Positions 6,099 through 48,065 of a DNA stretch of 64,000 bases are shown here, piece after piece. A model generated the notes under the pieces. It was not told the origin of the DNA, made no database searches, and worked only from the letters and a program-made list of their open reading frames with translations. A program made the position numbers and the translations under genes. This stretch comes from an uncultured Candidatus Saccharibacteria bacterium (GTDB taxonomy: Bacteria > Patescibacteriota > Dojkabacteria > J137): the NCBI GenBank assembly GCA_965230975.1, contig OZ246402.1, forward strand, positions 637,009 through 701,008. The letters run 5' to 3'. How positions within the stretch are numbered: position 1 is the first letter of the stretch; each line of letters starts with the position of its first letter.

Positions 6099-6260
6099 TC
6101 TTTCTTCTTCATCTTTTTTAAAGTCATTAACTTCTACATCCTTATAACTACATGAAGTACATTTTATTGTAGTAGTAACTATATCACCCTTTCGTTTATA
6201 ACTATGTTTAACTTCTGACTTACATTTTGGACAAAGATCGGGCTCATGTACCCATTCTGT

Positions 6261-6692
6261 TCAATCTTCAAAGATATGTTTTCTTTCTTTACATACAGGA
6301 CATTCAAGGAAGAACAACACTTTCTGAGGTTTAGTATCATGCCAATCAAGTGTTTTTAATTTTACTGTCATTAACTTCTTACAAGTAGTGCATTTGATAG
6401 CTGGTGCAGGAGTATTATCATATTTATCTTGTTTCTGTTTATCCTCATTCATCCATTCATTGATTTCAGATTCTCGATTCTTGTACCTATGGAGCTTAAT
6501 ACTTAGAAGTTGTTGATTAAGGACATAATTCCAGCCTTTATTAATTTCTTCTATTGGAGTATTTTTGATTTCAGGAGATTTGAGTGAATCTTTAGCAACT
6601 TTGTTTATAAATTCGGCTTTATCGAGGCAAAGTTCAATAGTTAGTAAGTCGTAACGATCTTCATAGTATTGTTCATCTTGAAGATATTTCAT
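6261..6692 (-). CDS. Hypothetical zinc-ribbon protein. It is possibly the N-terminal portion of an interrupted gene
   Basis: The C-terminus CTTCKK-x22-CPVCK is a zinc ribbon. The ORF ends with TGA at 6263-6261, in frame with the downstream ORF. It lies immediately downstream of lexA. Confidence 0.45.
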   Translation of the reverse strand: MKYLQDEQYYEDRYDLLTIELCLDKAEFINKVAKDSLKSPEIKNTPIEEINKGWNYVLNQQLLSIKLHRYKNRESEINEWMNEDKQKQDKYDNTPAPAIKCTTCKKLMTVKLKTLDWHDTKPQKVLFFLECPVCKERKHIFED

Positions 6693-6704: not shown

Positions 6705-7331
6705 TTATGCTTTAAAATCTTTGATAATCTGTATTACCTTTCCACAAATGGTGAATTTATATTGATCTTCTATATCTATGAATATAGGAGCATAGAATTT
6801 AGTGCTTTGAGATACTAGAGCAATCCTCTGATTATCTTCGTCAGTATAAATTTTTTTTATACAAGCACACCCGTCAATTATTGATACGACACAATCTCCA
6901 CTTTGAGGTGAAGTATTGGTACTATCAATGATTGCAAAATCTCCACTTTCTAGGTGTTTCCCATCGATCTTGAATTTGTTCATTGAATCTCCTATGGCTC
7001 TTATAGCAAATATTCCTCTCTTTTTTTTGATAATATTTTTGGAAACTTTTAATGAATCTGATATTGTGTCGCTAGCTAATAAGGTAGGTACTCCACAATT
7101 TGCCTCACCAAGTATAGGTATGTCTATAATTTCGTTATACGATTTTAAATCTTGGAAGATAGGTATATCTTTTTGAATAAATCCCTTTTTTTTGACCTGT
7201 TCAAGATGGTATTTTACTGTTTGCGGGTGTGAAACACCAATCAGTTTGCCCAATTTTCTTAAACTAATCTTTTCAATATCATATATTTTAGATATCTCTA
7301 CTATTTTATTCTGTGTATTATTGAAATTCAT
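6705..7331 (-). CDS. lexA: LexA-family transcriptional repressor (S24 peptidase)
   Basis: An N-terminal wHTH (LRKLGKLIGVSHPQTVKYHLEQ) plus AIRAIGDSMNKFKIDGKHLESGDFAIID (Ser nucleophile) and CIKKI (Lys), in the characteristic LexA/S24 arrangement. Length is 208 aa. Confidence 0.8.
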   Translation of the reverse strand: MNFNNTQNKIVEISKIYDIEKISLRKLGKLIGVSHPQTVKYHLEQVKKKGFIQKDIPIFQDLKSYNEIIDIPILGEANCGVPTLLASDTISDSLKVSKNIIKKKRGIFAIRAIGDSMNKFKIDGKHLESGDFAIIDSTNTSPQSGDCVVSIIDGCACIKKIYTDEDNQRIALVSQSTKFYAPIFIDIEDQYKFTICGKVIQIIKDFKA

Positions 7332-7554
7332 AAATAATTATATCACTATAATATACATTCAATCAATACTATTGACTTATTGACGAATCCGTAACATTTA
7401 CCTATTGTTTTTAGTTATGGATTATTTTATAATCTTTTCAATCTGAGGGCAAATAAAAAGCCCCACGCAAAGCATGAGGCAGTTTAGACAACTCCATTAT
7501 GAATTAAAATTCCAGGCTTTGCAAGATAAAAATTTTATTTATTAGGATATTTAT

Positions 7555-7734
7555 ATGTTCTATTTTGAGCTATACCTGGACAGAATAAATCAATGGAGAT
7601 GGAGGATCAAAAGTAGCGGTAATTATAAAACATTGGCTGATAGTGGAGAAAGTTATTACAACAAAGCTGATGCTATATATGCTATTAATTTGATAAAAAA
7701 CAATGCATTCTCTGCAATAATAATTGGTACATGA
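7555..7734 (+). CDS. DUF1508 (YegP/UPF0339) domain protein, 59 aa. It is not in the ORF track
   Basis: FELYLDRINQWRWRIKSSGNYKTLADSGESYYNKADAIYAINLIKNNA matches the YegP-repeat consensus (FEvykdk.g.wRfrLkA.NGeiia.Se.Y.sk..a.ngI.svk.NA). A rho-independent terminator follows. Confidence 0.6.
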   Translation: MFYFELYLDRINQWRWRIKSSGNYKTLADSGESYYNKADAIYAINLIKNNAFSAIIIGT

Positions 7735-7739
7735 CTACA

Positions 7740-7764
7740 GGAGCTCGATATAGAGCTCCTTTTT
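7740..7764 (+). terminator. Rho-independent terminator
   Basis: A perfect 7-bp stem GGAGCTC / GAGCTCC with a 6-nt loop, followed by TTTTT, directly after the DUF1508 ORF. Confidence 0.65.
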
Positions 7765-7779
7765 AATTTTTATAAGTAA

Positions 7780-8322
7780 TTGATGAAGACAATAGAACAA
7801 ACAATAAATATTGCGGGTATAATTTTTACAATAAAGGACGTGATCCTAATAATCCCCTTCTTATTGACAGTCGTTGGCGCTATATATTTAGCAATTAAAA
7901 CGAATATTAGATTCTCACAAAATCTAAAGCGTCCGGTTCTTTTTTTAAGTTTAGACACTGATAAAACCTGTGACTTAACTTTAGAAAAGGAAATAATCAA
8001 AAAAGCAAAATTTAAGATGACGTATGAGGCAGTACAAAATATTAGGAAATTTGAAAGTGGTGAACTTCAGGAATACTCCTGTTTAATTATTGGTTTTCAA
8101 AAAGATAAAAGTAGTTTTGAAGAACTAATTAAGGTCCTTTCACTAGTAAAATCAAATCAAAACATCCCCGTAATTATATATACTTTTGGAACAACTGCAT
8201 TTACTCCTGACCAATACAATAAAATATACGAAACCTATTCATTATATTCGATGGCAAATGTCCCGCTTAGGCTCATATCCGATTTATTTAATATTTTAGC
8301 AATTTATCCCAATGGAAAATAA
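7780..8322 (+). CDS. Small membrane protein with 1-2 N-terminal TM segments and a C-terminal alpha/beta domain
   Basis: Hydrophobic segments IAGIIFTI and VILIIPFLLTVVGAIYLAI lie within the first 40 aa. The stop overlaps the start of the next gene by 11 nt. Confidence 0.45.
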   Translation: MMKTIEQTINIAGIIFTIKDVILIIPFLLTVVGAIYLAIKTNIRFSQNLKRPVLFLSLDTDKTCDLTLEKEIIKKAKFKMTYEAVQNIRKFESGELQEYSCLIIGFQKDKSSFEELIKVLSLVKSNQNIPVIIYTFGTTAFTPDQYNKIYETYSLYSMANVPLRLISDLFNILAIYPNGK

Positions 8323-9400
8323 AACAAAGACAAATTTTAGTGAATATATCTCTGGAAAAATAACACCTAAGGAAAAAGAAAGGTCAATAATTTCTGAGCT
8401 TTACACAGAGCTATCAACAATTCTTGCTGACCAATGTTTTCAGACTGGGTCATACGCTAGATTTACTGCAAACACACCAGTGCACGACCTAGATGTTATT
8501 TGGAAATTACCTTCGGAAACTGCTCAAAGAATAAGGACTATGATGGCAAGGGCAATTAATCCTAATGATGTTGATGTTAAGGATATTCTAAACGAACTAA
8601 GAAATAAACTTGAAAGAGAGTATAAAACTTTAAATCGACAGGTTTCATTTGGAGTTCAATCACATTCCGTTACGTTAGATTTCCAAATTCCAATAGAGAA
8701 CGGAGAAATATTTGACATATCTATTGATGTTGTTCCAGGAATAATATTACCTGAGAATGACAAATTTAATGAACCTCTTTTTCTCGTTCCTGAAATAGCG
8801 CTGATGTCCAGATATAAAAGATTGATGAAGTATGAGAGGAAGGATCCCATAAATTGGATTAAATCAGATCCAAAAGGCTACATTGAATATGCCAGGCATA
8901 TGAATAATGAAAATGAACTATTTAGAAAATGTACCAAATTTCTAAAGTCTTGGAAAAACAAACAAAAGTATCTATTTGAAGATTTTAAATTAAAATCTTT
9001 TCATATAGAACTAATTGTGGCGGACTTAATTAGTAAAAAATCACACCAACTTGGTATAGACGTTTTGAAAGAATTCTTTTTAAAATTGCCAGAGTTTTTA
9101 AAGACGCCTCAATTTGTAGATTTTGCATATGAAAATGATAGTTCAAAGTATGTTGACGAATATATTGAAGATGTTCCAGAAAATGTTAAAAATTATATTT
9201 TAGCTAAGAGCCAAGAGGCTTGGGCTAAGATATCGGTGATTCATAGTGATAATGATACCAACATAGGCAGTATCTTTGATGAGATAACTCAAGTAGATGA
9301 GCAAAGTATCGAACCACAAGTAAAGATTAAATCAAATATTCCATATAAGCCATATTCTATTAATAATGAAGATAACCGAACAAGACTTACTTTACCTTAA
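8312..9400 (+). CDS. Pol-beta-superfamily nucleotidyltransferase (cGAS/DncV-like CD-NTase or SMODS-like)
   Basis: QTGSYARFTANTPVHDLDVIW fits the GS-x9-13-hDhD motif. A third acidic residue sits on a downstream strand (FDISIDVVPG). The 362-aa length and C-terminal helical region fit the family. Confidence 0.55.
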   Translation: MENKTKTNFSEYISGKITPKEKERSIISELYTELSTILADQCFQTGSYARFTANTPVHDLDVIWKLPSETAQRIRTMMARAINPNDVDVKDILNELRNKLEREYKTLNRQVSFGVQSHSVTLDFQIPIENGEIFDISIDVVPGIILPENDKFNEPLFLVPEIALMSRYKRLMKYERKDPINWIKSDPKGYIEYARHMNNENELFRKCTKFLKSWKNKQKYLFEDFKLKSFHIELIVADLISKKSHQLGIDVLKEFFLKLPEFLKTPQFVDFAYENDSSKYVDEYIEDVPENVKNYILAKSQEAWAKISVIHSDNDTNIGSIFDEITQVDEQSIEPQVKIKSNIPYKPYSINNEDNRTRLTLP

Positions 9401-10094
9401 GAACAATCAGCCAGAACTAAAGTTTACCCCACCAAACGTGATTCGTGGCAGGTTAAACTTTACAATGGAATATAATGCCAGTAAATTTCCTGGCTACAAA
9501 ATCTTCCATTTCAATGAAAACTTGGTGGAATCAGAATATTTGATTAAAGACAGTTATAATATTGAGATAAATACTGATGGTGATCTCTATGGATTGCCCG
9601 TATGTTTTTGTGTAGATAAACAAATAAATCAACAATATGAAGATCTTAAAGATAGTCCTAACCTAAAAGTTAATTGCATAAATGATCTTCACCTTAACCA
9701 AGATGCAGACTGCACTTTCTGTCTAGGATTTCCAATGGATTTTATAGATAGAAATTTGGCTAATTTGAGTCTTGAAGATTATCTTGAGGATTTTGTAGTA
9801 CCCTTTCTATATTATCAGACCTATATCTTCCGAAATCGTAAAGAACCTTGGCGTAGTTATGGTCACGGTCCTTTAATAGGACTTGGGGAATATTTTTACG
9901 AAATACGAAACGAAAAATCTAAAGCCAACGAGTCAGTAAAAAGAATTACTCCAACATTCAGAGAAAGGATTAAAGGTGTCAACATCATTTATAGTGAAAA
10001 TTGTATTTGCGGGTCTGGAAGGAAGTGGAGAGATTGCCATTTCAGAGCCGCAATGGGTTTGAAATTTATTAGGAGAATTTTATTAAGAGGTTAG
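9366..10094 (+). CDS. Hypothetical protein with a C-terminal SEC-C-like metal-binding motif
   Basis: The C-terminal CICGSGRKWRDCH resembles the SEC-C motif CPCGSGKKYKxCC. The gene overlaps the NTase gene by 35 nt, consistent with an operon. Confidence 0.45.
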   Translation: MKITEQDLLYLKNNQPELKFTPPNVIRGRLNFTMEYNASKFPGYKIFHFNENLVESEYLIKDSYNIEINTDGDLYGLPVCFCVDKQINQQYEDLKDSPNLKVNCINDLHLNQDADCTFCLGFPMDFIDRNLANLSLEDYLEDFVVPFLYYQTYIFRNRKEPWRSYGHGPLIGLGEYFYEIRNEKSKANESVKRITPTFRERIKGVNIIYSENCICGSGRKWRDCHFRAAMGLKFIRRILLRG

Positions 10095-10192
10095 CTTTAT
10101 ATTGCATAGCTTTCTATATCAATTGCTTAGCCATTCACACAGTTTTGTAATATAATCATTTCATAATACAATCAAGCATCTATAATAGTTTA

Positions 10193-13100
10193 ATGCTTAA
10201 TCAACAAAATATGAACAATGATTTAACATTCATTACAAATGAAGTAGGTAAATCCCTGCTTGATAGATTTAATACATTGATACCGAACTATACAAAAGAA
10301 TTCGACACTATAGTTGGGTACTTTTTTATTAGTGGATTTCATAAGATATATAGATCATTGGAAAACGTTGATAAAGTTAGGGTATTAGTTGGCTTATCTG
10401 TAGACAAAAAAGTTGCAGACCTAGTTACTTCAGACAGTTTACAAGCTAGATTTGACCTTGAATCCACGAAACAAATAAAAAGTGATATTGTAAGGAAAAT
10501 TCAAGATGAGGTTGCTGACTCAGAAGATACAAAAGAAGTTGAAGAGGGTATTAGAAAATTTGTGGAATGGTTAAAGAGTGGTAAGTTAGAAGTAAAGATA
10601 TATACTAAATCACCTCTTCATGCAAAAGTATATATTCTTACTTTTCAGGAAGGCGACAGAGATCCAGGAATGGTGATTACTGGCTCAAGTAATTTAACTG
10701 CAGGTGGTTTGGATGGTAACTTAGAGTTTAATGTTCAATTGCGAGATCCACGTGACTATTCCTATGCACTTGAGAAGTTTGAGCAACTTTGGGCTGAATC
10801 TGTAGAAATCACAGATCAATATATAACTACAGTTGAGCAGAAAACTCATATCTCTGATTCTATTACTCCTTACGAATTATACTTGAAATTTCTATATGAA
10901 TATTTCAAGAATGATTTAAACTATGAAAATGATGATGAGGATACACTACCAGAGGGCTATTTGGATCTAGATTATCAAAGACAAGCTGTTATAAATGCAA
11001 AAAGAATATTGGAGGAATATGGTGGTGTGTTTATTGCTGATGTAGTTGGACTTGGTAAAACTTTTATTACTTCAAGATTAGTTAAAGCACTAAATCAAAA
11101 AACATTAGTTATAGCTCCACCAGCGCTACTAGATGAGAATAATCCAGGTTCCTGGTTCAATGTATTTGATGAATTCGGGATTAGACATCGAAAATTTGAA
11201 TCAATTGGAAAGTTAGATCATATTCTTGCAATGGGCATACATGAGAATGTGGAAGTTGTAGTAATAGATGAATCCCATAGATTTAGAAATCAATCTACAG
11301 AAACGTATAATAAATTGGCTGAAATTTGCAAAGGGAAAAAAGTCATATTGGTTAGTGCAACGCCGTTTAACAATACTCCAAGTGATCTATTGTCTCAAAT
11401 TAAATTATTTCAGAATTCTAGAAAAAGTAGTATACCGAACCTCTCTGATCTAGATAATTTCTTCTCAAGGTTGAATGGTAAACTAAAGGGTCTAGATAGG
11501 AAGAGAGATTATGAAGAATATATGTCTACAGTAAAGGATAATGCTAAAGAAATAAGGGAAAAAATTTTGAAGTATTTGATGGTTAGAAGAACAAGAAGTG
11601 AAATTAGAAAATACTACGAAACTGATTTGTCCAAACAAAAATTAAGATTCCCTGATGTGATCGAACCAACCCCAGTATTTTACGAATTTAATGATCTCGA
11701 AGACAGAGCATTTCAAGAAACTATGGATTTTATTAAAGTCTTTAAATATAGTCGATATACTCCAATGCTCTACTATAAGGGAACAATTACTGAACAAGAG
11801 AAGCAAGGTCAAAGAAATTTAACTACTTTTATGAAGATGTTACTTGTAAAAAGATTTGAAAGTAGCATATATGCTTTTAAGAAAACTTTAGAAAGGTTTA
11901 TACATTCGTATGAGCTAATGATAGAAGAATATGGGAAAGGCAATGTTTATGTTAGTAATAAAAATGCAAACAAGTTATTCGAACTACTTTCAGAGCAAGA
12001 TGAAGATGGCTTATTAGATTTAATAAGTGGTGGCAAGGCAGAGGTATATAAATCTATAGACTTTAGAGACGAAATCTTGCTTGATATGAAATTTGACTTG
12101 AATATTCTAAAACAAGTATCTGCCAGCTGGGAAAACGTAAAACGTGATGTAAAACTTGAGAGGTTTTTAAATATACTTGAGTCTGATAAGGTTTTAAACC
12201 GAAATAAATTATTAATATTCACTGAATCACAGGAAACTGCTGATTATTTATCAGATAAAATTGGAGAAAAGTACCCTAACTCGGTTTTAAATTATACTGG
12301 AGCATCTTCTATTTCAAAAAGGTTTGAAGTGATTACTAATTTTGATGCAAAGTCAAAAGTACAAGAAGATACATATAGAATACTAGTTACAACTGATGTC
12401 TTGGCTGAGGGTGTTAATTTACATAGATCTAACTGTGTAATTAATTACGATATTCCATGGAACCCGACAAGAATGATTCAAAGAGTGGGTAGAATAAATA
12501 GAGTTGATACTAAATTCAAAGAAATTTATACTTACAATTTCTTCCCGACATCACAAGCAAATGATGAATTAAAATTAAAGGAATCGGCTGAAGCTAAAAT
12601 TAATATGTTTATTGAGTTACTAGGTAATGATGCAAGACTGTTAACTGATGGAGAGGAGATTAAGTCACATGACTTATTTAACAAATTGCTTTCAAAAGAA
12701 ACTTTAACTGGAGAGGACGAGAGTTTTGAAAGTGAATTAAAATACCTACAAGTAATACAGTCCATTAGAGACACAGATGTGGACTTATTTTCTAAGATAA
12801 AGGTCCTACCTAAAAAAGCACGTACAGGTAAAGTTTCCAAAGCAAACGAAATCGCACTAGTTTCCTATTTCCAAAAAGGAAATATTGATAAGTTCATACT
12901 CACAGCTGGCAATCTAACGAGTGAACTTGGTTTTTTTGATGCAGTAAAACTTATTGAATCTGAGGCGGACGTAAAGTCAAAAAAAATCTCTGAGGATTAT
13001 TACGAATATTTAAGCAAGAACAAGAATCTGTTTGATGAGTTAATAAATCAAAATATAGATGAAACTATTATCAAAAGAGGTGGTGATTCTGCTCAAAAAC

Positions 13101-13396
13101 TTGTTAAAAGATTAGGAATTTTGCTTAAGGGTATGAATAATTTAACAGAAGATCAAGACGAATATTTGAACAAGGTTATGGATAAAGCCGAAGAAGGAGC
13201 ACTATCGCGTGGAGTTGCAAAAAAATTATGGGATCTAATTAACTCTAGCGATATAGGATTAGATTCACAAAAAGTGTACTTTTCGATAAAAAAGAATTTA
13301 TCAGATAACTGGCTGAAAGATACCTTCACCGAATCAAGCCATATATCGGAAGGGAAAAGAGAAGTAATATTGTCTCAAATGATATTTCCAAATTAA
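10193..13396 (+). CDS. PLD-family nuclease fused to an SNF2-family helicase
   Basis: N-terminal HKD motif LHAKVYILTF...GSSNLTAGG. SNF2 motifs: I ADVVGLGKTFIT, II VVVIDESHRFRN, III LVSATPFNN, VI VINYDIPWNPTRMIQRVGRINR. Confidence 0.8.
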   Translation: MLNQQNMNNDLTFITNEVGKSLLDRFNTLIPNYTKEFDTIVGYFFISGFHKIYRSLENVDKVRVLVGLSVDKKVADLVTSDSLQARFDLESTKQIKSDIVRKIQDEVADSEDTKEVEEGIRKFVEWLKSGKLEVKIYTKSPLHAKVYILTFQEGDRDPGMVITGSSNLTAGGLDGNLEFNVQLRDPRDYSYALEKFEQLWAESVEITDQYITTVEQKTHISDSITPYELYLKFLYEYFKNDLNYENDDEDTLPEGYLDLDYQRQAVINAKRILEEYGGVFIADVVGLGKTFITSRLVKALNQKTLVIAPPALLDENNPGSWFNVFDEFGIRHRKFESIGKLDHILAMGIHENVEVVVIDESHRFRNQSTETYNKLAEICKGKKVILVSATPFNNTPSDLLSQIKLFQNSRKSSIPNLSDLDNFFSRLNGKLKGLDRKRDYEEYMSTVKDNAKEIREKILKYLMVRRTRSEIRKYYETDLSKQKLRFPDVIEPTPVFYEFNDLEDRAFQETMDFIKVFKYSRYTPMLYYKGTITEQEKQGQRNLTTFMKMLLVKRFESSIYAFKKTLERFIHSYELMIEEYGKGNVYVSNKNANKLFELLSEQDEDGLLDLISGGKAEVYKSIDFRDEILLDMKFDLNILKQVSASWENVKRDVKLERFLNILESDKVLNRNKLLIFTESQETADYLSDKIGEKYPNSVLNYTGASSISKRFEVITNFDAKSKVQEDTYRILVTTDVLAEGVNLHRSNCVINYDIPWNPTRMIQRVGRINRVDTKFKEIYTYNFFPTSQANDELKLKESAEAKINMFIELLGNDARLLTDGEEIKSHDLFNKLLSKETLTGEDESFESELKYLQVIQSIRDTDVDLFSKIKVLPKKARTGKVSKANEIALVSYFQKGNIDKFILTAGNLTSELGFFDAVKLIESEADVKSKKISEDYYEYLSKNKNLFDELINQNIDETIIKRGGDSAQKLVKRLGILLKGMNNLTEDQDEYLNKVMDKAEEGALSRGVAKKLWDLINSSDIGLDSQKVYFSIKKNLSDNWLKDTFTESSHISEGKREVILSQMIFPN

Positions 13397-16300
13397 TGAA
13401 TACTCAAGCCAAACTCAAAGTTAAAACACTGTTTGAAAATAGATTTAATAAGGAAAAGTTCGTCTCATTTATTGCTGACTTGCTTAATGAAGTTGAAAAT
13501 GACACCTCCTTCCCTCCACTAAGGGGAAGATATATTAAAGCACCATTTCAAAATGGAATTCATGAATATGAGAGGGTTTGTAAATATATAGATTCATTAG
13601 GAAACCAGATAGATGTACTTATAGTTAAATTGAAAGACAAAAGTAAATTAGAAAATGCAAGGACTTTTCAAAGGAACTTCGTTGTTGACTATCTTAATGG
13701 TGGGCGAGGAGGAAAACTTAAAGATGGTGCATTAGTTGCTTTTTATTCCGATGATATTTCAGATTGGAGATTTTCTTTTGTAAAGCTGGAATATGAACTT
13801 AAAGAAGAAAACGGAAAAATAAAAGAGAACAAAAAAATGAATTCAGCTAAGCGATACTCATTCCTTGTTGGTGAGAATGAAAATTCGCACACGGCTCAAA
13901 GCCAGTTACTACCTCTGCTCGAAGATGATATTAATAACCCTACTTTAAAACAAATTGAAGATGTGTTCGGAGTTGAGATAGTAACTAAAGAGTTTTTTGA
14001 AAAATATAAAGAGCTCTTTTTACAAGTTAACAACCATCTCGAAGAAATTGTAAGAAAAGATACCAATGTAAAAAATGATTTTGAAAGTAAAGAAATTAGT
14101 ATAGGTGACTTTGCTAAGAAATTATTAGGTCAAATAGTGTTCCTATACTTTTTACAAAAAAAAGGATGGTTCGGTGTTCCCATGACCAAAAAATGGGGAG
14201 AAGGAGATAGAAGATTTTTAAGAAGTATTTTTGAAAAATCTAATAAAGAGAGTAAGAACTTTTTTAATGATTATCTGGAACCTCTATTTTATGAGGCGTT
14301 AGCCAAAGAAAGAGATGGTAATTACTATAGTAGATTCGAGTGTAAAATTCCTTTTTTGAATGGAGGATTATTTGACCCTATCGGTGATTATGATTGGTGG
14401 AATACTGTTATCAATTTGCCAAATGATCTCTTTTCAAATAACTATATTTCCCAAGATAAACATAAAGATATAGGTACGGGAATCTTGGATGTTTTTGATA
14501 GATACAACTTCACAGTTAGGGAAGATGAACCTCTTGAAAAAGAAGTAGCAATCGATCCTGAAATGCTCGGCAAGGTATTCGAGAATATGCTTGAAGTAAA
14601 AGATCGAAAATCGAAAGGTACATATTATACTCCTCGAGAAATTGTTCACTATATGTGCCAGGAAAGTTTAATAAATTATCTAGAGAGTAATTTAAGTACG
14701 GTTAGTAGAGATGATCTAGTTTACCTTGTAAAAAAAGCCGAGTACGATAAGGAAAAAGAGCAAGCTGGGGTTGAGGGTATAAAAGTTTATGAAATCAACT
14801 CAAAATTTCCGGAGGATATTAAGATTTATTCAAATGAAATTGATCAGTTGCTTGCGGATATTAAAGTATGTGACCCAGCAATTGGTTCTGGTGCATTCCC
14901 AGTTGGTATGATGAATGAAATTGTAAAAGTCAGGTCTATCTTAACAGAATTCTTGCCAAACAATAGTAATCGTAGTGAGTATGAATTTAAAAGACATGCT
15001 ATAGCGAATTCTATACATGGAGTTGATATAGATCAAGGTGCAGTTGAAATTGCGAAACTTAGACTTTGGCTCTCTCTTATTGTTGATGAAGACGATATTA
15101 GCAACATAAAGCCCTTACCAAATCTTGATTATAAAATTATGCAGGGTAATAGTCTTATTGAGGAATTTGAAGGAATAAAACTATTTGATGATAGCCTATT
15201 AAACAATGATGATTCCTATAAACATGAAATTATGAAGCTGAAGGATAGACAGCACGTTCTTCAAAAAGAATACTTTGAAATTTACCATGATAATACAAAG
15301 AAAAGTGAAACAGATCAGATTAACAAGGAATTAGAATTGATTAAAAAGAAGCTAATTGATCTTAATAAACCTCAGAAAGTAAACGATGGCGAAATTGATC
15401 TATTTAAGACTAGAGATGAAGCCAAAGAGAAAGCTGATCAGTTACAAGTATTACAAAAGAAGTTTTTTGAAGCATCACAAAAGTCTGAAAAGGAAAGAAT
15501 TAAGCAACAAATTGATGATTTGATATGGGATTTGATTGAGACTACAGTTAGACATGAAGGTAGTAGCGATAAATTGGCCCATATACAAAAAATTAGAAGG
15601 TCTAATAATAAACCCTTCTTTTTATGGAAATTGAATTTTGCTGATGTGTTTAAAGAAAAAGGAGGTTTTGATGTTGTAATTGCAAATCCACCGTATGTAA
15701 AAGAATATACGCAAAAAGATGCATTTGATGGATTGAGAAAATCACCATATTATAAAGGGAAAATGGATCTGTGGTACTTTTTTGCTTGTTTTGGAATAGA
15801 TATTCTTCATGAAGGGGGAATACTTACATTAATTGCACAAAATAACTGGGTTACAAGTTATGGAGCTTCGAAGATGAGAGATAAAATAATTACTGAAACA
15901 CAAATATTAACACTAATCGATTTTGGAAATTACATGATTTTTGACACTGCTGATATCCAAACTATGGTTATGATTTTCAGTAAAGTAAAGCCATTGGGAA
16001 ACTATCATTTCAACCTAAGAAGAATAGTAGGAAAGCCTCACAGCCCCTCAATAATTAATGACTTACTTGAGGAGAAGAAGGCTGAGAATATAGAAATATT
16101 ACATCCCAATATTAAGCCGGATTCATTAATCAATAAAAGTTTCTCATTCAATAATGTTCAATCTAATAAACTACTAAATAAGTTGACTAAGGACTCCATA
16201 TTTCTTAATGGTGATAAAGAAATTGCTCAAGGTATTGTGCCTAATCCAGATGTAGTAAATAGTAGAAATATAAAAAAGATACCTGAATCAATGGTCCGAA

Positions 16301-17055
16301 GTTTGGAGATACAGGTAGGAGATGGCGTATTTGTAGTTGATGAGAATAAATTTTCTGACTTAACACTGAAAGAAAAGTTAATATTGAAACCACTCTACGA
16401 ACCATTTCAATTTGAAAAATATTTCATACCAAAGAAGACTTCAAAGAAGTTAATTTACTTTATAAAAGGTTTAAATCCAGCAGATTATCCCACACTCATA
16501 GAACATCTCAGTAAGTACAAAGAAATAATGCTTGATCGTAGAGAAAATATAAATGGAAGACTTGAATATTATCATTTGCATTGGCCAAGAGACGAAAAGT
16601 TCTTTAAAGAAGGAAAAAAAATTCTTTGTGTAAGAAAATCAAGTTATCCATTGTTTATTTACACCGAAAATCCAGCTTATGTAATGATGTCTGTAAATAT
16701 TATTAAATCTGATAGAATTAACCTTAAGTACCTTACTGCAATACTTAATAGTAGAATTGTAGCTTTCTGGTTACAAAAAAGAGGAAAATTACAAGGTTCA
16801 AACTTTCAACTAGATAAAGAGCCCCTAACCGAAATTCCAATACGACTAGCGAGCGTAGATAGTGTTAAATCAATTGTTGATATAGTTGACCAAATTCTCG
16901 CCATAACAGAAAAGTCAGATTATCTAAACAATGAAATTGAGAAATCTCAAATAAAATCTCTACAAACAAAAATTGATCAAATGATTTATAAACTGTACGA
17001 ATTATCTGATGAAGAGATTAAAATAGTTAAAGAAGAAACTCAGCATCTTTATTAA
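13396..17055 (+). CDS. Large gamma-class N6-adenine DNA methyltransferase (Eco57I/PglX/DrmMI-like), 1219 aa
   Basis: Motif X GTYYTPREIV, motif I DPAIGSGAFP, motif IV VIANPPYV. There is a long coiled-coil insertion between motifs I and IV and a C-terminal TRD-like region. The start overlaps the upstream stop (TAATG). Confidence 0.8.
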   Translation: MNTQAKLKVKTLFENRFNKEKFVSFIADLLNEVENDTSFPPLRGRYIKAPFQNGIHEYERVCKYIDSLGNQIDVLIVKLKDKSKLENARTFQRNFVVDYLNGGRGGKLKDGALVAFYSDDISDWRFSFVKLEYELKEENGKIKENKKMNSAKRYSFLVGENENSHTAQSQLLPLLEDDINNPTLKQIEDVFGVEIVTKEFFEKYKELFLQVNNHLEEIVRKDTNVKNDFESKEISIGDFAKKLLGQIVFLYFLQKKGWFGVPMTKKWGEGDRRFLRSIFEKSNKESKNFFNDYLEPLFYEALAKERDGNYYSRFECKIPFLNGGLFDPIGDYDWWNTVINLPNDLFSNNYISQDKHKDIGTGILDVFDRYNFTVREDEPLEKEVAIDPEMLGKVFENMLEVKDRKSKGTYYTPREIVHYMCQESLINYLESNLSTVSRDDLVYLVKKAEYDKEKEQAGVEGIKVYEINSKFPEDIKIYSNEIDQLLADIKVCDPAIGSGAFPVGMMNEIVKVRSILTEFLPNNSNRSEYEFKRHAIANSIHGVDIDQGAVEIAKLRLWLSLIVDEDDISNIKPLPNLDYKIMQGNSLIEEFEGIKLFDDSLLNNDDSYKHEIMKLKDRQHVLQKEYFEIYHDNTKKSETDQINKELELIKKKLIDLNKPQKVNDGEIDLFKTRDEAKEKADQLQVLQKKFFEASQKSEKERIKQQIDDLIWDLIETTVRHEGSSDKLAHIQKIRRSNNKPFFLWKLNFADVFKEKGGFDVVIANPPYVKEYTQKDAFDGLRKSPYYKGKMDLWYFFACFGIDILHEGGILTLIAQNNWVTSYGASKMRDKIITETQILTLIDFGNYMIFDTADIQTMVMIFSKVKPLGNYHFNLRRIVGKPHSPSIINDLLEEKKAENIEILHPNIKPDSLINKSFSFNNVQSNKLLNKLTKDSIFLNGDKEIAQGIVPNPDVVNSRNIKKIPESMVRSLEIQVGDGVFVVDENKFSDLTLKEKLILKPLYEPFQFEKYFIPKKTSKKLIYFIKGLNPADYPTLIEHLSKYKEIMLDRRENINGRLEYYHLHWPRDEKFFKEGKKILCVRKSSYPLFIYTENPAYVMMSVNIIKSDRINLKYLTAILNSRIVAFWLQKRGKLQGSNFQLDKEPLTEIPIRLASVDSVKSIVDIVDQILAITEKSDYLNNEIEKSQIKSLQTKIDQMIYKLYELSDEEIKIVKEETQHLY

Positions 17056-17069
17056 ATGTTTTCATAATT

Positions 17070-17774
17070 ATGAATTCTGCAAACCAAGGTTCATCATTTG
17101 ATTCATATAAAAGACATACAGAAAAGATCCTTAGTACTTTTGTTGGTATACAGAAAATAGCAAATCTTCCTGGAGAAACTATCAAAAAAGCTTATGCTCC
17201 AATTGAAAAGATCTTTGAACAGTTAAGGTACATGATTTATGTCGATCCAGATACTTTCAATACTCTTTCTGGTTTATATCAATCTGTTCAAATAGATAGC
17301 AGTATAAAATACCCTGATAAATATATAATCTACACCAATGCAGTAAAAACTCCTCAATATGATGGTCAGCAATTTATTGTTACCAAAGAGATTGCTTTAG
17401 TAATTGCCAAATTAGATTATCAGTATAGGCATAAGATTTATGGGAAAGTGAATAAAGTGCCTTTTAATAAACACTCTTCAGTACTAGAGATAGATGGTAC
17501 CTCTTTTCAAATCAAAAAGGATTTAGAAACTTTTAACTTATGCTTAATGTTATTTGGGTCAAAACAATATATTGAAAAGATATGGAAATGGGAAGATATA
17601 AAGACAAAAGTACTCGATCACGGAAAAGAAGTTATAGATGATGAAAATGCATTTAAACTCAAAGTATATCGTTTAAATAAGAGAATTGAGAATAAAATTG
17701 GCTTTATAGATATCATTTTGTACAAAAATAAAACTGTCCGTGTAAATCCCCAATATATCTACTTTTTCAAATAG
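17070..17774 (+). CDS. Hypothetical protein
   Basis: A 234-aa ORF immediately after the methyltransferase. No recognisable motif. Confidence 0.4.
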   Translation: MNSANQGSSFDSYKRHTEKILSTFVGIQKIANLPGETIKKAYAPIEKIFEQLRYMIYVDPDTFNTLSGLYQSVQIDSSIKYPDKYIIYTNAVKTPQYDGQQFIVTKEIALVIAKLDYQYRHKIYGKVNKVPFNKHSSVLEIDGTSFQIKKDLETFNLCLMLFGSKQYIEKIWKWEDIKTKVLDHGKEVIDDENAFKLKVYRLNKRIENKIGFIDIILYKNKTVRVNPQYIYFFK

Positions 17775-17841
17775 CAACCGAACCTTACCGAACACCACTT
17801 TCTGCAACAATACAATAAATTATTTATTATTTTATTGTTGT

Positions 17842-19167
17842 ATGGAAGAAAAACTTCAAACAGTTTATGTAAACATAAACGACCTCGTTAATGCTGATTA
17901 CAATCCTAGAAAATGGGATGAAAAGGCTCTCTCGGACTTAAAGGAAAGCATAAAGCGCTTCGGATTAGTTGATCCTGCAATCGTGAACATTGCCGAGAAC
18001 AGAAAGAATATAGTCATTGGTGGTCATATGCGTATTGAAGCAGCAAAAGCCCTGGGGGTTACTGAGATGCCAGTAATCTATCTAAATATCCCAAACGTCG
18101 AAAAAGAAAAAGAACTTAATATAAGGCTCAATAAGAATCATGGAGAATTCGATTTTGAACTTCTTGCAAATTTCGCCGAAGATTTTCTTACAGATATTGG
18201 CTTTAATTCAGAAGAACTAGATTCTATTTTCGATTGGGACGATGAAACCCCAGAAATATTTGATTTAGAGAAAGAGCTTGAAAAGTTAAATATCAAAAAC
18301 ATTGAGATTCAAAAGGGTGATGTATGGCAATTAGGTGAAAGCAGATTAATGTGTGGTGATTCTACAGTTAATGAAGATATGCATAAGCTTTTAAACAATG
18401 AGAAAGCTGACATGTGCTTTACTGATCCACCTTACATTCTTGATTATCTTCACGGTAAGAAAAAGAATGGTAAAGCAACAGAAGGATTTGGTGCTAAAAG
18501 AAATCGTAAATATCTAGAAACAGACATTCTTCCTGACAACTTCACTGAACTTTGGATGAAAAATATCTCAGAAGTTTCCAAAGATAATTTCCACATAATC
18601 GTTTATGAAAACTGGAAAAACATTAGAACAATATGGGGTGAAATGGAAAAGTATTGGAAAGTTAAAAACATGATTGTCTGGCATCTACCAAATCGTAATC
18701 AAGGCTTTGCCCCGAAATATAAATTCTTTTCGAAACATGATATTGCAATGGTCGGTTCAACCGAAGATAAAGAAGAATTGGATTTAAATCCTGAGGATGA
18801 ACTTTTGCAAAATGAGTATGAAACTGCTTTATATGCAATATCAGGTAAGCCTCAATGGGAAGGTTATGAAAAGGGAAAGACGATACAACCAACTGATTTT
18901 ATTGAATATAAAGCCTCTGATGAAAAAAGTTCGGGGCAAGGAATAATATTTGGAACGAAACCATTAGAAATCCTAATTCCCTACATCAAAGTACTTACTA
19001 AACGTGGAGATCTAATTGTTGAGCCTTTTGGAGGAAGCGGATCAACATTGATCGCTTCAACGAAAATGAAAAGAAGATGTTATCTAATGGAGAAATCTCC
19101 AGTTTATGCCGAAGTAATCAAAAATCGTTGGGAGAAATTAACTGGTGAGAAAGGAGTAAAGATATGA
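17842..19167 (+). CDS. ParB-like nuclease domain fused to an N6/N4 DNA methyltransferase (DPPY class)
   Basis: N-terminal ParB/Srx signature YNPRKW...GLVDPAIVN...GGHMRIEAAKALG. Methyltransferase motif IV MCFTDPPY. C-terminal SAM motif EPFGGSGST. Confidence 0.75.
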   Translation: MEEKLQTVYVNINDLVNADYNPRKWDEKALSDLKESIKRFGLVDPAIVNIAENRKNIVIGGHMRIEAAKALGVTEMPVIYLNIPNVEKEKELNIRLNKNHGEFDFELLANFAEDFLTDIGFNSEELDSIFDWDDETPEIFDLEKELEKLNIKNIEIQKGDVWQLGESRLMCGDSTVNEDMHKLLNNEKADMCFTDPPYILDYLHGKKKNGKATEGFGAKRNRKYLETDILPDNFTELWMKNISEVSKDNFHIIVYENWKNIRTIWGEMEKYWKVKNMIVWHLPNRNQGFAPKYKFFSKHDIAMVGSTEDKEELDLNPEDELLQNEYETALYAISGKPQWEGYEKGKTIQPTDFIEYKASDEKSSGQGIIFGTKPLEILIPYIKVLTKRGDLIVEPFGGSGSTLIASTKMKRRCYLMEKSPVYAEVIKNRWEKLTGEKGVKI

Positions 19168-19565
19168 AAAATCTAAAAAAAGAACTAATTGAACAACTAC
19201 GAAAAACTCCGATTATAGAAGTTGCTTGTAAGAAAGTTGGAATTGGTAGAGCGACCTTTTATAGATGGAAGAAAAGAGATGGCAAATTTGCTGATGAAGC
19301 AGAATCAGCAATTCTTGAAGGATCACAAGTTGTAAATGATATGGCTGAAAGTCAGTTAATTAATTCTATCAAGAACGGAAATTTAACTGGAATTATTTTT
19401 TGGCTTAAGAATCATCATAAACAATACTCACCTAAACTTGAAGTAACAACAAAAAGTGCAGATCTACCACTAACAGAAGAACAAAAGGAAGTTATTCGAA
19501 AGTCATTAAGTATGGCTTTTAATTTATCTATTAATGATACAAACGATGAACATGAAACAAATTAA
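19164..19565 (+). CDS. HTH protein, candidate terminase small subunit
   Basis: HTH KKVGIGRATFYRWKK. Its position immediately upstream of the terminase large subunit overlaps it, in the typical TerS-TerL arrangement. Confidence 0.4.
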   Translation: MKNLKKELIEQLRKTPIIEVACKKVGIGRATFYRWKKRDGKFADEAESAILEGSQVVNDMAESQLINSIKNGNLTGIIFWLKNHHKQYSPKLEVTTKSADLPLTEEQKEVIRKSLSMAFNLSINDTNDEHETN

Positions 19566-21084
19566 TAAGGATTTTGAAATACCAATGGAAATAATTGAAA
19601 AGATTTTAGTTGATAAAAGAGCGAGAAAAGAACTTACTCGAGAAAGTCATTACTGGTTCTTTCATCTTTACTTTAGTGAGTATGTTAAATATCCAACAGC
19701 AGATTTTCAAAGAGAAATGTTTAGCATCACAGAAGATGATGAAGTAAAAATGGCAGTTCTAATTGCTTTCAGAGGTTCCGCTAAGTCAACAATAATGACA
19801 ATGTCGTATCCTCTCTGGGCGATTTTAGGAAAGCAACAAAAGAAATGTGTTGTAATAATTTCTCAAACTCAACAACAAGTCAGAACTCACTTTGCAAATT
19901 TAAAAAGAGAACTAGAAAATAATGAAGTATTAAGAAACGACTTAGGTTCATTGGAGGAAGAATCTGATGAATGGGGATCGTATTCTTTAGTTCTACCTAA
20001 ATTCAATGCAAGACTTATTGCAGCATCAAGTGAACAAAGTATCAGAGGAATTAGGCATGGAGCAAATAGACCTGATTTAATTATTTGCGATGATGTTGAA
20101 GATTTAACTACTATAAAAACAAAGGAAGGCAGAGATAAAACATATTCTTGGCTATCTGGAGAAGTTATTCCGCTAGGGGATCAGAATACAAAGATAATAA
20201 TGATTGGAAATCTTCTGCACGAGGATTCTCTGTTAATGAGACTTAAAAAGAAAATCACGGAGGAAAATATGAATGCTATCTTCAGAGAATATCCTTTAGT
20301 TGATGATCAAAATAATATTCTTTGGTTAAGTAAGTTTAAAGATATAGATGCAATCAATGATTATAAAAAGATAATCGGGGATGATAAAGCTTGGCAAAGA
20401 GAATATATGCTTAAAATTATTCCAGAAGATGATCAATTAGTTTATCAAGAATGGATTCAGTATTACAATGAACTCCCAAAGAGTACTCAAGATTATAGAT
20501 ACACTATTATAGGTGTCGATTTAGCAATTTCAACAAGTGCTTCGGCTGACTATACTGCTATGGTTACAGCACATGTATTTGGAAATCTTGAAAACTTAAA
20601 AGTCTATATACTTCCTTTCCCTTTTAACAAAAGAGTTGAATTCACTACAATAACTGAAGTTATAAAACAAAAAGGAAAAGAACAACATTATGGAAGAAGA
20701 CCTGATATCTATATAGAAGAGGTGGGATTCCAAACAGCAGTAATTCATCAGTTAAAAAACCAAGGACTAAATACTAAAGGATTTAAAGTTCATGGACAAG
20801 ATAAAAGATCGAGATTAAATTCTGTAACTCCATTTATAAAGTTAGGACGAGTATTATTTCCCCAAAAAGGAGCTGAAGAACTAATTCAACAATTAGTCTA
20901 CTTCGGAGTGGAAAAGCATGATGATTTAGTGGATGCATTTTCCATGGTTCTTTTAAAAGTTGCGGAAAAGGATAGACCGGGAATTCAAGTCATAACAGGT
21001 GAAGCGGCTGCACTTTTGAGAGGTGGCGGTGGAAGCTGGTATGGCGGTGATTATTGGAGTTCAGGAAGTAGTCGATCGTTTTAA
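19534..21084 (+). CDS. Phage terminase large subunit
   Basis: Walker A-like AFRGSAKST, Walker B LIICDDVED and a C-terminal nuclease region. The tail is an unusual Gly-rich RGGGGSWYGGDYWSSGSS. Confidence 0.65.
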   Translation: MIQTMNMKQINKDFEIPMEIIEKILVDKRARKELTRESHYWFFHLYFSEYVKYPTADFQREMFSITEDDEVKMAVLIAFRGSAKSTIMTMSYPLWAILGKQQKKCVVIISQTQQQVRTHFANLKRELENNEVLRNDLGSLEEESDEWGSYSLVLPKFNARLIAASSEQSIRGIRHGANRPDLIICDDVEDLTTIKTKEGRDKTYSWLSGEVIPLGDQNTKIIMIGNLLHEDSLLMRLKKKITEENMNAIFREYPLVDDQNNILWLSKFKDIDAINDYKKIIGDDKAWQREYMLKIIPEDDQLVYQEWIQYYNELPKSTQDYRYTIIGVDLAISTSASADYTAMVTAHVFGNLENLKVYILPFPFNKRVEFTTITEVIKQKGKEQHYGRRPDIYIEEVGFQTAVIHQLKNQGLNTKGFKVHGQDKRSRLNSVTPFIKLGRVLFPQKGAEELIQQLVYFGVEKHDDLVDAFSMVLLKVAEKDRPGIQVITGEAAALLRGGGGSWYGGDYWSSGSSRSF

Positions 21085-21126
21085 AATCTCCTAGACTTAA
21101 TAAGAGAACAGCGGTACTGTCTTGGT

Positions 21127-24066: not shown

Positions 24067-24157
24067 TGGCGGAGGAGACAGGATTCGAACCTGCGTCCCA
24101 GTTGCCCGGGAACAGTCTTTCCAGGACTGCGCACTAGACCAACTATGCGACTCCTCC
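24067..24157 (-). tRNA. tRNA-Ser (anticodon GGA), with a long variable arm and CCA encoded
   Basis: The minus strand reads GGAGGAGUCGCAUAGUUGGUCUAGUGCGCAGUCCUGGAAAGACUG...GGUUCGAAUCCUGUCUCCUCCGCCA. The anticodon loop is CUGGAAA, the T-loop is GGUUCGAAUCC, and the acceptor stem is 7 bp. Confidence 0.85.
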
Positions 24158-48063: not shown

Positions 48064-48065
48064 AT

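What the first reader, a model, noticed from the sequence alone, without database searches (positions are those of the whole stretch)
10193..17774. PLD-nuclease/SNF2-helicase fusion coupled to a 1219-aa PglX/Eco57I-like adenine methyltransferase. It is DISARM/BREX-like but lacks the core partners
The 1067-aa protein joins an HKD phospholipase-D-type nuclease domain to a complete SNF2 helicase core. Its stop overlaps the start of a gamma-class N6A methyltransferase (TAATG) carrying YYTP, DPAxGSGxF and NPPY motifs with a long insertion. This combination resembles DrmD+DrmMI of class-1 DISARM, with DrmC-like PLD fused in cis, or a BREX PglX-type methylase. No DrmA/DrmB, BrxC/PglZ or BrxL homologs follow. 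Instead a 234-aa unknown ORF (17070-17774) and a ParB-methyltransferase come next. It could be a minimal two- or three-gene modification-dependent restriction system, or an anti-restriction/DNA-protection module of the mobile element.
Basis: partly seen in the sequence, partly recalled or inferred. Interest (0 to 1): 0.7.

Follow-up and report, generated by a model that had tools for sequence, protein, structure and literature searches.

The report
Two-gene PLD-helicase plus methylase restriction cassette
Two translationally coupled genes (a nuclease-helicase fusion and a large adenine methylase that reads the DNA site) form a widespread but untested two-gene restriction-modification cassette, carried here as swappable defence cargo next to a CBASS system.

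Summary
ORF 10193-13396 is a single-HKD PLD nuclease fused to a complete Swi2/Snf2 motor. Its TAA stop overlaps the ATG of ORF 13396-17055, a gamma-class N6-adenine methyltransferase with a TaqI_C-type specificity domain.

The pair is a conserved cassette, not a local accident. In 80 genome loci holding helicase homologues, 62 have the methylase homologue adjacent, and no third gene recurs. Where both genes are full length they lie on the same strand in 53 of 53 loci. From the methylase side, 3 of 3 loci checked have the helicase next door.

The 234-aa ORF is not part of it. It belongs to a conserved block (ORF234, ParB-methylase, TerS, TerL, serine recombinase) that occurs elsewhere without the pair.

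It is not DISARM, BREX or MANTIS. No core partners are present, and all curated model scores fall far below their cutoffs.

The methylase N-terminal domain appears restriction-endonuclease-like but lacks the catalytic lysine. The PLD of the helicase is therefore the likely only nuclease. The best reading is a split, Type ISP/MmeI-like ATP-dependent R-M system.

The pair has been noted in passing in three papers but never named or tested. I rate it a new variant of a known kind, of moderate interest.

The parts
10193..13396 (+). Gene 1: HKD/PLD nuclease fused to a Swi2/Snf2 motor (1067 aa), the proposed restriction subunit
   Evidence: Pfam PLDc_2, SNF2-rel_dom and Helicase_C. PHROG 26785 matches full length at 2.7e-243. 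More than 7700 homologues of about 1060 aa were found. The AF2 model is closest to RapA and other Snf2 enzymes, and also matches SauUSI.
10490..10792 (+). Single PLD (HKD) nuclease domain; the catalytic H143-x-K145...GSSN167 lies at nt 10619-10693
   Evidence: H143, K145 and G164-N167 are invariant in 54 aligned homologues. With one HKD per chain, an active site needs a dimer; this is inferred from BfiI, SauUSI and MtsD (PMC7913695; bioRxiv 10.64898/2026.09.23.753747).
10967..12505 (+). Swi2/Snf2 ATPase core: Walker A at 11048-11062, DESH at 11267-11278, motif VI at 12479-12502
   Evidence: All motifs are invariant in the family.
12590..13393 (+). C-terminal extension of the helicase (aa 800-1066): a beta-sheet module plus a helical bundle, function unknown. 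It is a candidate contact site for the methylase.
   Evidence: Secondary structure is from the AF2 model. There is no Pfam match. The whole-chain match to RapA covers about 1150 alignment columns. The contact role is inferred.
13396..17055 (+). Gene 2: gamma-class N6-adenine methyltransferase with specificity domain (1219 aa), the proposed modification and recognition subunit
   Evidence: PADLOC REase_MTase_IIG 1.8e-215. Pfam Eco57I, N6_Mtase, TaqI_C and MmeI_Mtase. PDB sequence matches to CamA and BseCI over residues 755-1198.
13396..13935 (+). N-terminal domain (aa 1-180) with alpha-beta-beta-beta-alpha-beta topology. It is tentatively restriction-endonuclease-like and lacks a (D/E)xK lysine.
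13948..14835 (+). Helical spacer and NGGLF / YYTP region, typical of MmeI, PglX and Type ISP methylases
14872..15696 (+). Catalytic methyltransferase core: motif I DPAIGSGAF at 14872-14898 and motif IV NPPY at 15685-15696, split by a variable insertion of about 150 aa (15163-15630)
15973..16845 (+). Target-recognition domain (TaqI_C-like), the variable part of the family
   Evidence: Pfam TaqI_C over residues 1065-1149. Identity to homologues falls to 0.25-0.40 here, against 0.5-0.78 in the N-terminal half.

Best explanation
The locus is a self-contained two-gene, ATP-dependent restriction-modification cassette.

Proposed roles:
- The 1219-aa protein is the recognition and modification subunit. 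Its TaqI_C-type specificity domain reads a short, probably asymmetric site. Its gamma-class catalytic core methylates an adenine there, which marks host DNA as self.
- Its N-terminal domain sits where MmeI-type enzymes carry their nuclease, but it has lost the catalytic lysine. It therefore probably no longer cuts.
- The 1067-aa protein is the restriction subunit. It is a Swi2/Snf2 double-strand DNA translocase carrying one HKD half-site, so two chains must come together to build one PLD active site.
- On unmethylated sites the methylase subunit would recruit or license the motor-nuclease. The motor-nuclease then uses ATP to move along or remodel the DNA and cleaves it.

Functionally this is a Type ISP or MmeI-like enzyme split into two polypeptides, with PLD replacing the Mrr / PD-ExK nuclease and Snf2 replacing the Type I-like motor.

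What is shown: the domains, the intact catalytic motifs, the strict gene pairing and its co-inheritance, the variable specificity domain, and the absence of other partners.

What is inferred: physical interaction, which subunit cuts, site asymmetry, translocation and defence activity.

In this window the cassette is cargo in a variable defence slot, immediately downstream of a three-gene CBASS operon.
For: 1. Intact catalytic motifs in both proteins, invariant across homologues.

2. Pairing.
- 62 of 80 genome loci found through the helicase have the methylase adjacent; most of the rest are cut contigs.
- In loci where both genes are full length, they are on the same strand in 53 of 53.
- The median gap is 2 nt.
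- No third gene family recurs.
- 3 of 3 loci found through the methylase have the PLD-Snf2 gene upstream.
- The pair is also intact in 3 viral contigs and on plasmids.

3. Co-divergence. Identity of the helicase and of the methylase N-terminal half to the window proteins correlates across 53 loci (Spearman 0.76, p 5e-11).

4. The specificity domain and the insertion are variable while the rest is conserved, as expected for a specificity subunit under diversifying selection.

5. The HxK...GSxN motif is retained in 65 of 73 full-length helicase relatives. Seven of the 8 that lack it are linked to a Type III Mod/Res pair, which brings its own nuclease.

6. The methylase N-domain lacks a (D/E)xK lysine.

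7. The fold and profile neighbours are all restriction enzymes: MmeI, PglX, LlaBIII and DrdV for the methylase; RapA-like Snf2 proteins and SauUSI for the helicase.

8. Literature.
- L. lactis pLd8 orf33/orf34 have the same architecture, and the authors found no restriction domain in the methylase (PMC6098607).
- Synechocystis pSYSX slr6050 is a distant member of the pair. It is tentatively assigned the asymmetric site GA(m6A)GGC, and its knockout could not be segregated (PMC6105098). That is what is expected if a cognate nuclease is active.
- The related four-gene MANTIS system uses a dimeric PLD-SF2 effector with one PLD site (bioRxiv 10.64898/2026.09.23.753747).
Against: - There is no experimental test of any close member of this family.
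- In MANTIS the methylase needs an AAA+ loader and a co-factor, and restriction could not be reconstituted in vitro. A two-protein mechanism may therefore be too simple.
- Interaction between the two proteins was not modelled.
- Synechocystis slr6050 is only 22-25% identical, its specificity was assigned by elimination, and a VapBC pair separates the two genes there.
Confidence: 0.62

Rival explanations
1. Two independent activities that merely travel together. The 1219-aa protein would be a complete stand-alone Type IIG enzyme that cuts with its own N-terminal domain, as Cj0031 or MmeI do. The PLD-Snf2 protein would be a separate helicase-nuclease effector, for example a SauUSI-like Type IV enzyme or a back-up nuclease.
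For: The PADLOC Type IIG profile covers the whole methylase, including residues 3-434. The N-domain has conserved acidic residues D66 and D73. Solitary Type IIG relatives restrict phage (PMC4889913). SauUSI is a structural neighbour of the helicase.
Against: No (D/E)xK lysine occurs in 68 of 69 homologues. Pairing, strand and co-divergence are too strict for two independent systems. The helicase has no recognisable DNA-modification reader or specificity domain. The stop and start codons overlap.
Confidence: 0.14
2. A module serving the mobile element rather than the host. The methylase would protect element DNA from host restriction, and the Snf2-PLD protein would work in element replication or recombination, or against competing elements.
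For: The pair sits beside a ParB-methyltransferase, TerS, TerL and a serine recombinase. A full-length PHROG family exists.
Against: The same backbone block occurs without the pair in related loci. Only about 3 close copies were found among 2.9 million viral contigs, and there were no close hits in 50,697 phage records. Homologues sit in chromosomes and plasmids of many phyla, next to other defence genes such as SIR2, STAND, TIR and toxin-antitoxin genes.
Confidence: 0.07
3. A remnant or reduced form of a larger known system (class 1 DISARM, BREX type 3, or MANTIS / Type-2 BR) that has lost its other genes and is non-functional or only methylates.
For: Best partial profile hits include DrmD (4.4e-36), DrmMI (7e-31), BrxHI/II and PglX. 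The HKD-Snf2 architecture equals that described for Type-2 BR helicases (PMC12839542).
Against: The two-gene form is the rule in the 80 loci, not the exception. Both ORFs are intact, all motifs are conserved, and neither DUF499/DUF3780 nor DUF1998/PglZ recurs nearby. NCBIfam scores are far below the cutoffs.
Confidence: 0.04
4. The PLD-Snf2 protein is an accessory or effector of the upstream CBASS operon.
For: The top PADLOC hit is a model named 'C3a139 HKD+Snf2', which sits among models labelled like CBASS components. The gene starts 99 nt after the CBASS E2 gene.
Against: The CBASS operon already has its own transmembrane effector. No homologue of the cyclase, E2 or transmembrane gene was found in any of the 80 related loci. 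The constant partner is the methylase.
Confidence: 0.03

Closest known systems
Type ISP restriction-modification enzymes (LlaGI, LlaBIII)
   Different: Type ISP is one polypeptide with an Mrr-type PD-ExK nuclease and a Type I-like SF2 motor. Here there are two polypeptides, a metal-independent PLD nuclease that must dimerise, and a Swi2/Snf2 (RapA-like) motor. The methylase also keeps an extra N-terminal domain.
MmeI-family Type IIL/IIG enzymes (MmeI, DrdV, Cj0031-like)
   Different: Those enzymes cut with their own PD-ExK domain and need no ATP or partner. Here the lysine of the motif is absent, and a PLD-Snf2 gene is a constant neighbour.
MANTIS / Gao_RL / Type-2 BREX-related system (MtsA-D)
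   Same: The effector has the same architecture: an N-terminal HKD nuclease on an SF2/Snf2 ATPase. It is paired with an N6-adenine methylase that reads a short asymmetric site (PMC12839542; bioRxiv 10.64898/2026.09.23.753747).
   Different: MANTIS is defined by a DUF499 AAA+ ATPase and a small DUF3780/3870 protein, both required for methylation. Neither is present here or in related loci. The methylase here is a much larger MmeI-like protein. Direct sequence comparison with MtsD and MtsC was not possible.
Class 1 DISARM (DrmA, DrmB, DrmC, DrmD, DrmMI)
   Same: It has a Snf2 helicase (DrmD), a PLD protein (DrmC) and an Eco57I-type adenine methylase (DrmMI). There are partial profile matches.
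   Different: The DISARM core, DrmA plus the DUF1998 protein DrmB, is absent. PLD is fused to the helicase. NCBIfam scores are 137.6 against a cutoff of 610 for DrmD and 19.5 against 133 for DrmC.
SauUSI and CglI/NgoAVII (ATP-dependent PLD restriction enzymes)
   Same: A PLD nuclease is coupled to an SF2 ATPase. SauUSI is a Foldseek hit at 2.5e-10, and there is a weak RE_NgoFVII Pfam match.
   Different: SauUSI is a Type IV enzyme with its own SRA reader and no methylase. CglI and NgoAVII have separate R and H proteins and C5 methylases.
The same gene pair as already remarked in the literature
   Same: L. lactis pLd8 orf33/orf34 have the same domain architecture as described by the authors (PMC6098607). 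Loci described as 'Type II RM CDS with adjacent PLD + SNF CDS' carry programmed inversions (PMC9881135). Synechocystis pSYSX has a helicase-related protein plus slr6050, M.Ssp6803IV (PMC6105098).
   Different: These are passing annotations. No name, census, mechanism or functional test of the pair was found in 6 literature searches. The Synechocystis pair is only 22-27% identical to this one. Sequence homology of the pLd8 and inversion loci to this pair was not checked here.

Membership tests
Class 1 DISARM | DrmA helicase and DrmB (DUF1998) core genes in the locus | tested here: not met
   Pfam and PADLOC scans of the larger ORFs across the window found no DUF1998 or DrmA/YprA-type gene. No such gene recurs in the 80 related loci.
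Class 1 DISARM | The proteins reach the curated DrmD and DrmC model cutoffs | tested here: not met
   NCBIfam DrmD scores 137.6 bits against a cutoff of 610, DrmD_b 72 against 950, and DrmC 19.5 against 133.
BREX (any type) | PglZ phosphatase and BrxC ATPase present alongside PglX | tested here: not met
   No PglZ, BrxC or BrxL hit in the ORFs scanned across the window.
BREX (any type) | The methylase reaches a PglX model cutoff | tested here: not met
   NCBIfam BREX-1 PglX scores 91.6 against 500, BREX-6 63.6 against 900, and BREX-2 41.2 against 400.
MANTIS / Type-2 BR (Gao_RL) | DUF499 AAA+ ATPase (MtsA) and DUF3780/3870 protein (MtsB) in the operon | tested here: not met
   Neither is in the window. 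No gene of these sizes recurs beside the pair in related loci.
MANTIS / Type-2 BR (Gao_RL) | HKD nuclease at the N-terminus of an SF2/Snf2 helicase effector | tested here: met
   PLDc_2 over residues 100-200 followed by the Snf2 core. The model has a RapA-like overall architecture.
MANTIS / Type-2 BR (Gao_RL) | Sequence orthology to MtsD and MtsC | not testable with these tools
NCBIfam 'phospholipase D-like anti-phage protein' NF042964 scores 149.7 against a cutoff of 1100, and the origin of that model was not verified.
Type ISP R-M | Nuclease, motor, methylase and specificity domain in one polypeptide, with an Mrr-type nuclease | tested here: not met
   There are two ORFs with a TAATG overlap, and the nuclease is PLD.
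Type IIG/IIL (MmeI-like) R-M | Fused methylase plus specificity domain matching a Type IIG profile | tested here: met
Type IIG/IIL (MmeI-like) R-M | Catalytically competent PD-(D/E)xK nuclease domain in the same chain | tested here: inconclusive
   The N-domain has a compatible topology and a conserved D73. The residue two positions later is Leu in 68 of 69 sequences, and no other (D/E)xK is conserved. The fold assignment is weak.
Type IIG/IIL (MmeI-like) R-M | Acts alone, without an ATPase partner | tested here: not met
   A PLD-Snf2 gene is adjacent in 62 of 80 loci found through the helicase and in 3 of 3 found through the methylase.
CBASS accessory or effector | Co-occurrence with a CD-NTase cyclase in related loci | tested here: not met
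   tblastn with the window's cyclase, E2 and transmembrane proteins found nothing in the 80 loci. Divergent cyclases could have been missed.

The most novel reading that the evidence does not exclude
This pair represents an unnamed but very widespread class of two-component ATP-dependent restriction-modification systems in bacteria and archaea. An MmeI-like enzyme has lost its own nuclease activity and instead licenses a separate Swi2/Snf2 motor that carries a dimerising, metal-independent PLD nuclease. It would be the simplest member of the methylase-plus-Snf2 defence lineage that includes DISARM, BREX type 3 and MANTIS. It would show that this lineage can work without any AAA+ loader.
Probability: 0.5. 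Interest if true: 0.6.

Novelty: new variant of a known kind. Interest (0 to 1): 0.5.

Why it matters
If the model holds, genome annotation currently mislabels a common defence system. The methylase is called a 'Type IIG' enzyme or simply 'N-6 DNA methylase', and its nuclease partner is called a 'helicase-related protein'.

A two-protein system would be a far more tractable model than the four- to six-gene systems DISARM, BREX and MANTIS. It could be used to ask how a site-specific methylase hands unmodified DNA to a Snf2 motor-nuclease. It could also show how hemimethylating systems avoid cutting their own newly replicated DNA.

The system also matters practically. It is a barrier to transformation in many cultured organisms that carry it, including Synechocystis, Lactococcus, Parabacteroides, Paraclostridium and Thermus.

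In this particular window the result is more modest: a correct annotation of defence cargo in a variable slot.

Tried and rejected
- Nucleotide searches of the 7.6-kb region against the phage and plasmid collections found nothing.
- Protein searches against phage records found only distant helicase or methylase fragments.
- ORF234 as a third component is rejected.
- I first took the seven distant loci with helicase, a 220-aa gene, a 640-aa gene and a 1000-aa gene to be MANTIS. Reading the sequences showed a Type III Mod (DPPY) and Res (TGTGKT, DEPQ) pair instead, with a helicase relative that has lost its HKD motif.
It was replaced by three contig look-ups.
The host remains unidentified.
- A Foldseek search of the methylase N-terminal model gave no significant match.
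- Permissive Pfam scans of the methylase N-domain, the helicase C-terminus and ORF234 gave nothing usable.
- A repeat search found no inverted repeats or spare specificity cassettes that would indicate a shufflon.
- Promoter and terminator scans were at chance level.


Full report
**Observation.** The junction reads TAATG, with TAA at 13394-13396 and ATG at 13396-13398.

The first protein carries one PLD (HKD) domain (PLDc_2, 3.8e-11). It also has a complete Swi2/Snf2 ATPase (SNF2-rel_dom 9.6e-10, Helicase_C 2.7e-21). The catalytic residues are present:
- H143-x-K145...GSSN167
- Walker A GLGKT at 286-290
- DESH at 359-362
- QRVGRINR at 763-770

The second protein is a gamma-class N6-adenine methyltransferase. 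It has YYTP at 410-413, DPAIGSGAF at 493-501 and NPPY at 764-767. An insertion of about 140-150 aa splits the Eco57I-type core, and a TaqI_C specificity domain lies near the C-terminus.

**Surroundings.** Immediately upstream, at 7780-10094, lies a three-gene CBASS operon: a transmembrane effector, an oligonucleotide cyclase (7.3e-60) and an E2-like protein. Downstream come:
- ORF234 (17070-17774, no family match)
- a ParB-N6/N4 methyltransferase
- a small and a large terminase subunit
- a large serine recombinase
- a DUF4160 protein
- tRNA-Ser at 24067-24157
- the housekeeping genes uvrA, mfd and ychF

Pfam and PADLOC scans of the larger ORFs across the window found no DrmA/DrmB, PglZ/BrxC/BrxL or DUF499/DUF3780 gene.

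**The pair is a conserved cassette.** The helicase has more than 7700 homologues. The listed top hits are about 1060 aa long and 52-72% identical (one is 99%). Where a source names them, they come from Bacteroidales, Parcubacteria, Moranbacteria and Thermodesulfobacteriota, and NCBI calls them only 'helicase-related protein'.

I fetched 80 genome loci through the helicase, from bacteria and archaea, and clustered all their neighbouring ORFs. Only one other family recurs, the methylase, present in 62 of 80 loci. Most of the remaining loci are contigs that end at the helicase.

Where both genes are full length (53 loci):
- they are on the same strand in 53 of 53
- the order is helicase then methylase in 43, and the reverse in 10
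- the median gap is 2 nt
- identity to the window proteins co-varies (Spearman 0.76, p 5e-11)

Starting from the methylase, 3 of 3 long contigs have the PLD-Snf2 gene directly upstream. One of them is the complete genome of Phototrophicus methaneseepsis. The pair is also intact in the 3 viral contigs that have a close copy, and on plasmids of Parabacteroides, Thermus and Synechocystis.

**ORF234 is not a component.** It has only three homologue clusters in a 5.8-billion-protein database. In four related loci it sits in a conserved block with no PLD-Snf2 or large methylase gene. That block is a small ORF, ORF234, ParB-methyltransferase, TerS, TerL and serine recombinase.

One related contig (L081) is syntenic with the window on both sides. 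The left flank matches window 5068-6692, and the right side matches 17070-22443 and the tRNA-Ser. Between them it carries different cargo: DUF2779, a DEAD/ResIII helicase, a BrxC/BrxD-like ATPase and a TerB_C protein. In the window, the S24-peptidase gene, CBASS and the pair fill that position. The finding therefore sits in a variable defence slot beside a conserved mobile-element backbone.

**What the two proteins look like.** The helicase AF2 model (pLDDT 78) is closest to bacterial RapA (7.5e-13). Eukaryotic Snf2 remodellers follow, and the ATP-dependent PLD restriction enzyme SauUSI is also a hit (2.5e-10). There is only one HKD motif per chain. An active site therefore needs a dimer, as in BfiI, SauUSI and MANTIS MtsD (PMC7913695; bioRxiv 10.64898/2026.09.23.753747).

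In 69 aligned homologues D73 is always acidic and D66 mostly so. The residue two positions after D73 is leucine in 68 of 69, and no other (D/E)xK is conserved. This N-domain defines a family of about 1000 clusters at 50% identity. It is always at the N-terminus of proteins of roughly 1030-1340 aa.

The N-terminal half and the NPPY region are conserved. The insertion and the specificity domain are variable.

**An informative contrast.** The HxK...GSxN motif is present in 65 of 73 full-length helicase relatives. Seven of the 8 without it come from loci where the helicase is joined to a 220-aa protein and a Type III Mod/Res pair, which supplies its own nuclease. The eighth is a merged ORF. The PLD is thus kept wherever the partner is the large methylase that lacks a canonical nuclease motif.

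**Mechanism proposed.** The methylase subunit recognises a short site through its specificity domain and methylates an adenine to mark self. At unmodified sites it recruits or licenses a dimer of the Snf2-PLD protein. That dimer uses ATP to translocate or remodel DNA and cleaves it with its single composite PLD site.

The domains, the motifs, the pairing and the variable specificity domain are shown. The interaction, the identity of the cutting subunit, the strand asymmetry and the defence phenotype are inferred.

Indirect experimental support comes from Synechocystis pSYSX. A distant member of the pair (27% and 22-25% identity) includes slr6050. That gene is tentatively assigned the asymmetric motif GA(m6A)GGC and could not be fully deleted (PMC6105098). 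This is the expected behaviour of a methylase guarding against a live cognate nuclease.

**Comparison with known systems.**
- It works most like a Type ISP enzyme (LlaGI, LlaBIII) split into two chains, with PLD in place of Mrr and Snf2 in place of the Type I-like motor.
- It shares its effector architecture with MANTIS / Gao_RL / Type-2 BREX-related systems (PMC12839542; bioRxiv 10.64898/2026.09.23.753747). It lacks the DUF499 ATPase and the small co-factor that define those systems and that MANTIS needs for methylation.
- It is not DISARM. There is no DrmA or DrmB, and DrmD scores 137.6 against a cutoff of 610.
- It is not BREX. There is no PglZ or BrxC, and PglX scores 91.6 against a cutoff of 500.
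- It matches a Type IIG profile, but a competent in-cis nuclease motif could not be shown and it does not act without a partner gene.

**Novelty.** The pair has been noticed before, in passing.
- For L. lactis plasmid pLd8, the authors wrote that the Type IIG methylase has no restriction domain and that the PLD of the neighbouring Snf2 protein probably cuts (PMC6098607).
- The Synechocystis methylome paper studied slr6050 without noting its neighbour (PMC6105098).

In six literature searches I found no name, census, mechanism or functional test for the two-gene system. I class it as a new variant of a known kind (ATP-dependent R-M) and score interest at 0.5. It is widespread, tractable and mis-annotated, but its logic is what a specialist would predict from its relatives.

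**Limits.**
- The host organism was not identified.
- The recognition site is unknown.
- The restriction-endonuclease-like fold of the methylase N-domain is weakly supported.
- No complex modelling was possible.

Noticed in passing
window 7780-10094 (+): A complete three-gene CBASS operon lies directly upstream of the finding: a transmembrane effector (PADLOC C3a59, 3e-12), an oligonucleotide cyclase (7.3e-60; Pfam SMODS) and an E2-like protein with a C-terminal SEC-C motif (7e-20).
   Followed up: partly
window 6705-17055 versus L081 2495-9940: This is a variable defence-cargo slot. A related contig is syntenic on both sides (window 5068-6692 and 17070-22443 plus tRNA-Ser). In place of the S24 repressor-like gene, CBASS and the pair, it carries DUF2779, a DEAD/ResIII helicase, a BrxC/BrxD-like ATPase and a TerB_C protein.
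   Followed up: partly
window 17070-22443 (+), up to tRNA-Ser at 24067-24157: A conserved compact block occurs at 54-89% identity in other assemblies: ORF234, ParB-N6/N4 methyltransferase, 133-aa TerS, TerL and a large serine recombinase. It has no capsid or tail genes nearby. It looks like the backbone of a small integrative, possibly phage-satellite-like, element or a prophage remnant.
   Followed up: partly
L069, L070, L072, L073, L076, L078, L079 (helicase match near 10001-12500 in most): Distant relatives of the helicase (about 26% identity) have lost the HKD motif. They sit in a recurring four-gene arrangement with a 220-250-aa protein, a Type III Mod-like methylase (DPPY) and a Type III Res-like helicase-nuclease.
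   Followed up: partly
window 33544-36465 (+): A 973-aa protein whose only match is a prokaryotic SLOG (LSDAT_prok) domain at residues 712-882 (1.1e-25). It has no PADLOC match. The domain may relate to nucleotide-sensing conflict systems (my recollection, not tested here).
   Followed up: no
window 48066-49910 (+): A 614-aa protein with a partial match to the MADS component mad8 (4.6e-19) and to the C-terminus of DndH (1.1e-7). It may be a stray defence-related gene.
   Followed up: no
L167 (Synechocystis pSYSX 43696-51129): In this distant version of the pair, a VapBC-type toxin-antitoxin pair is inserted between the helicase-related gene and the methylase slr6050.
   Followed up: no
window 10080-10200 and 17030-17075: The start codons of the helicase gene and of ORF234 have no recognisable Shine-Dalgarno sequence upstream. 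The organism is unidentified, has 31% G+C, and the matching contig is about 1.19 Mb.
   Followed up: no
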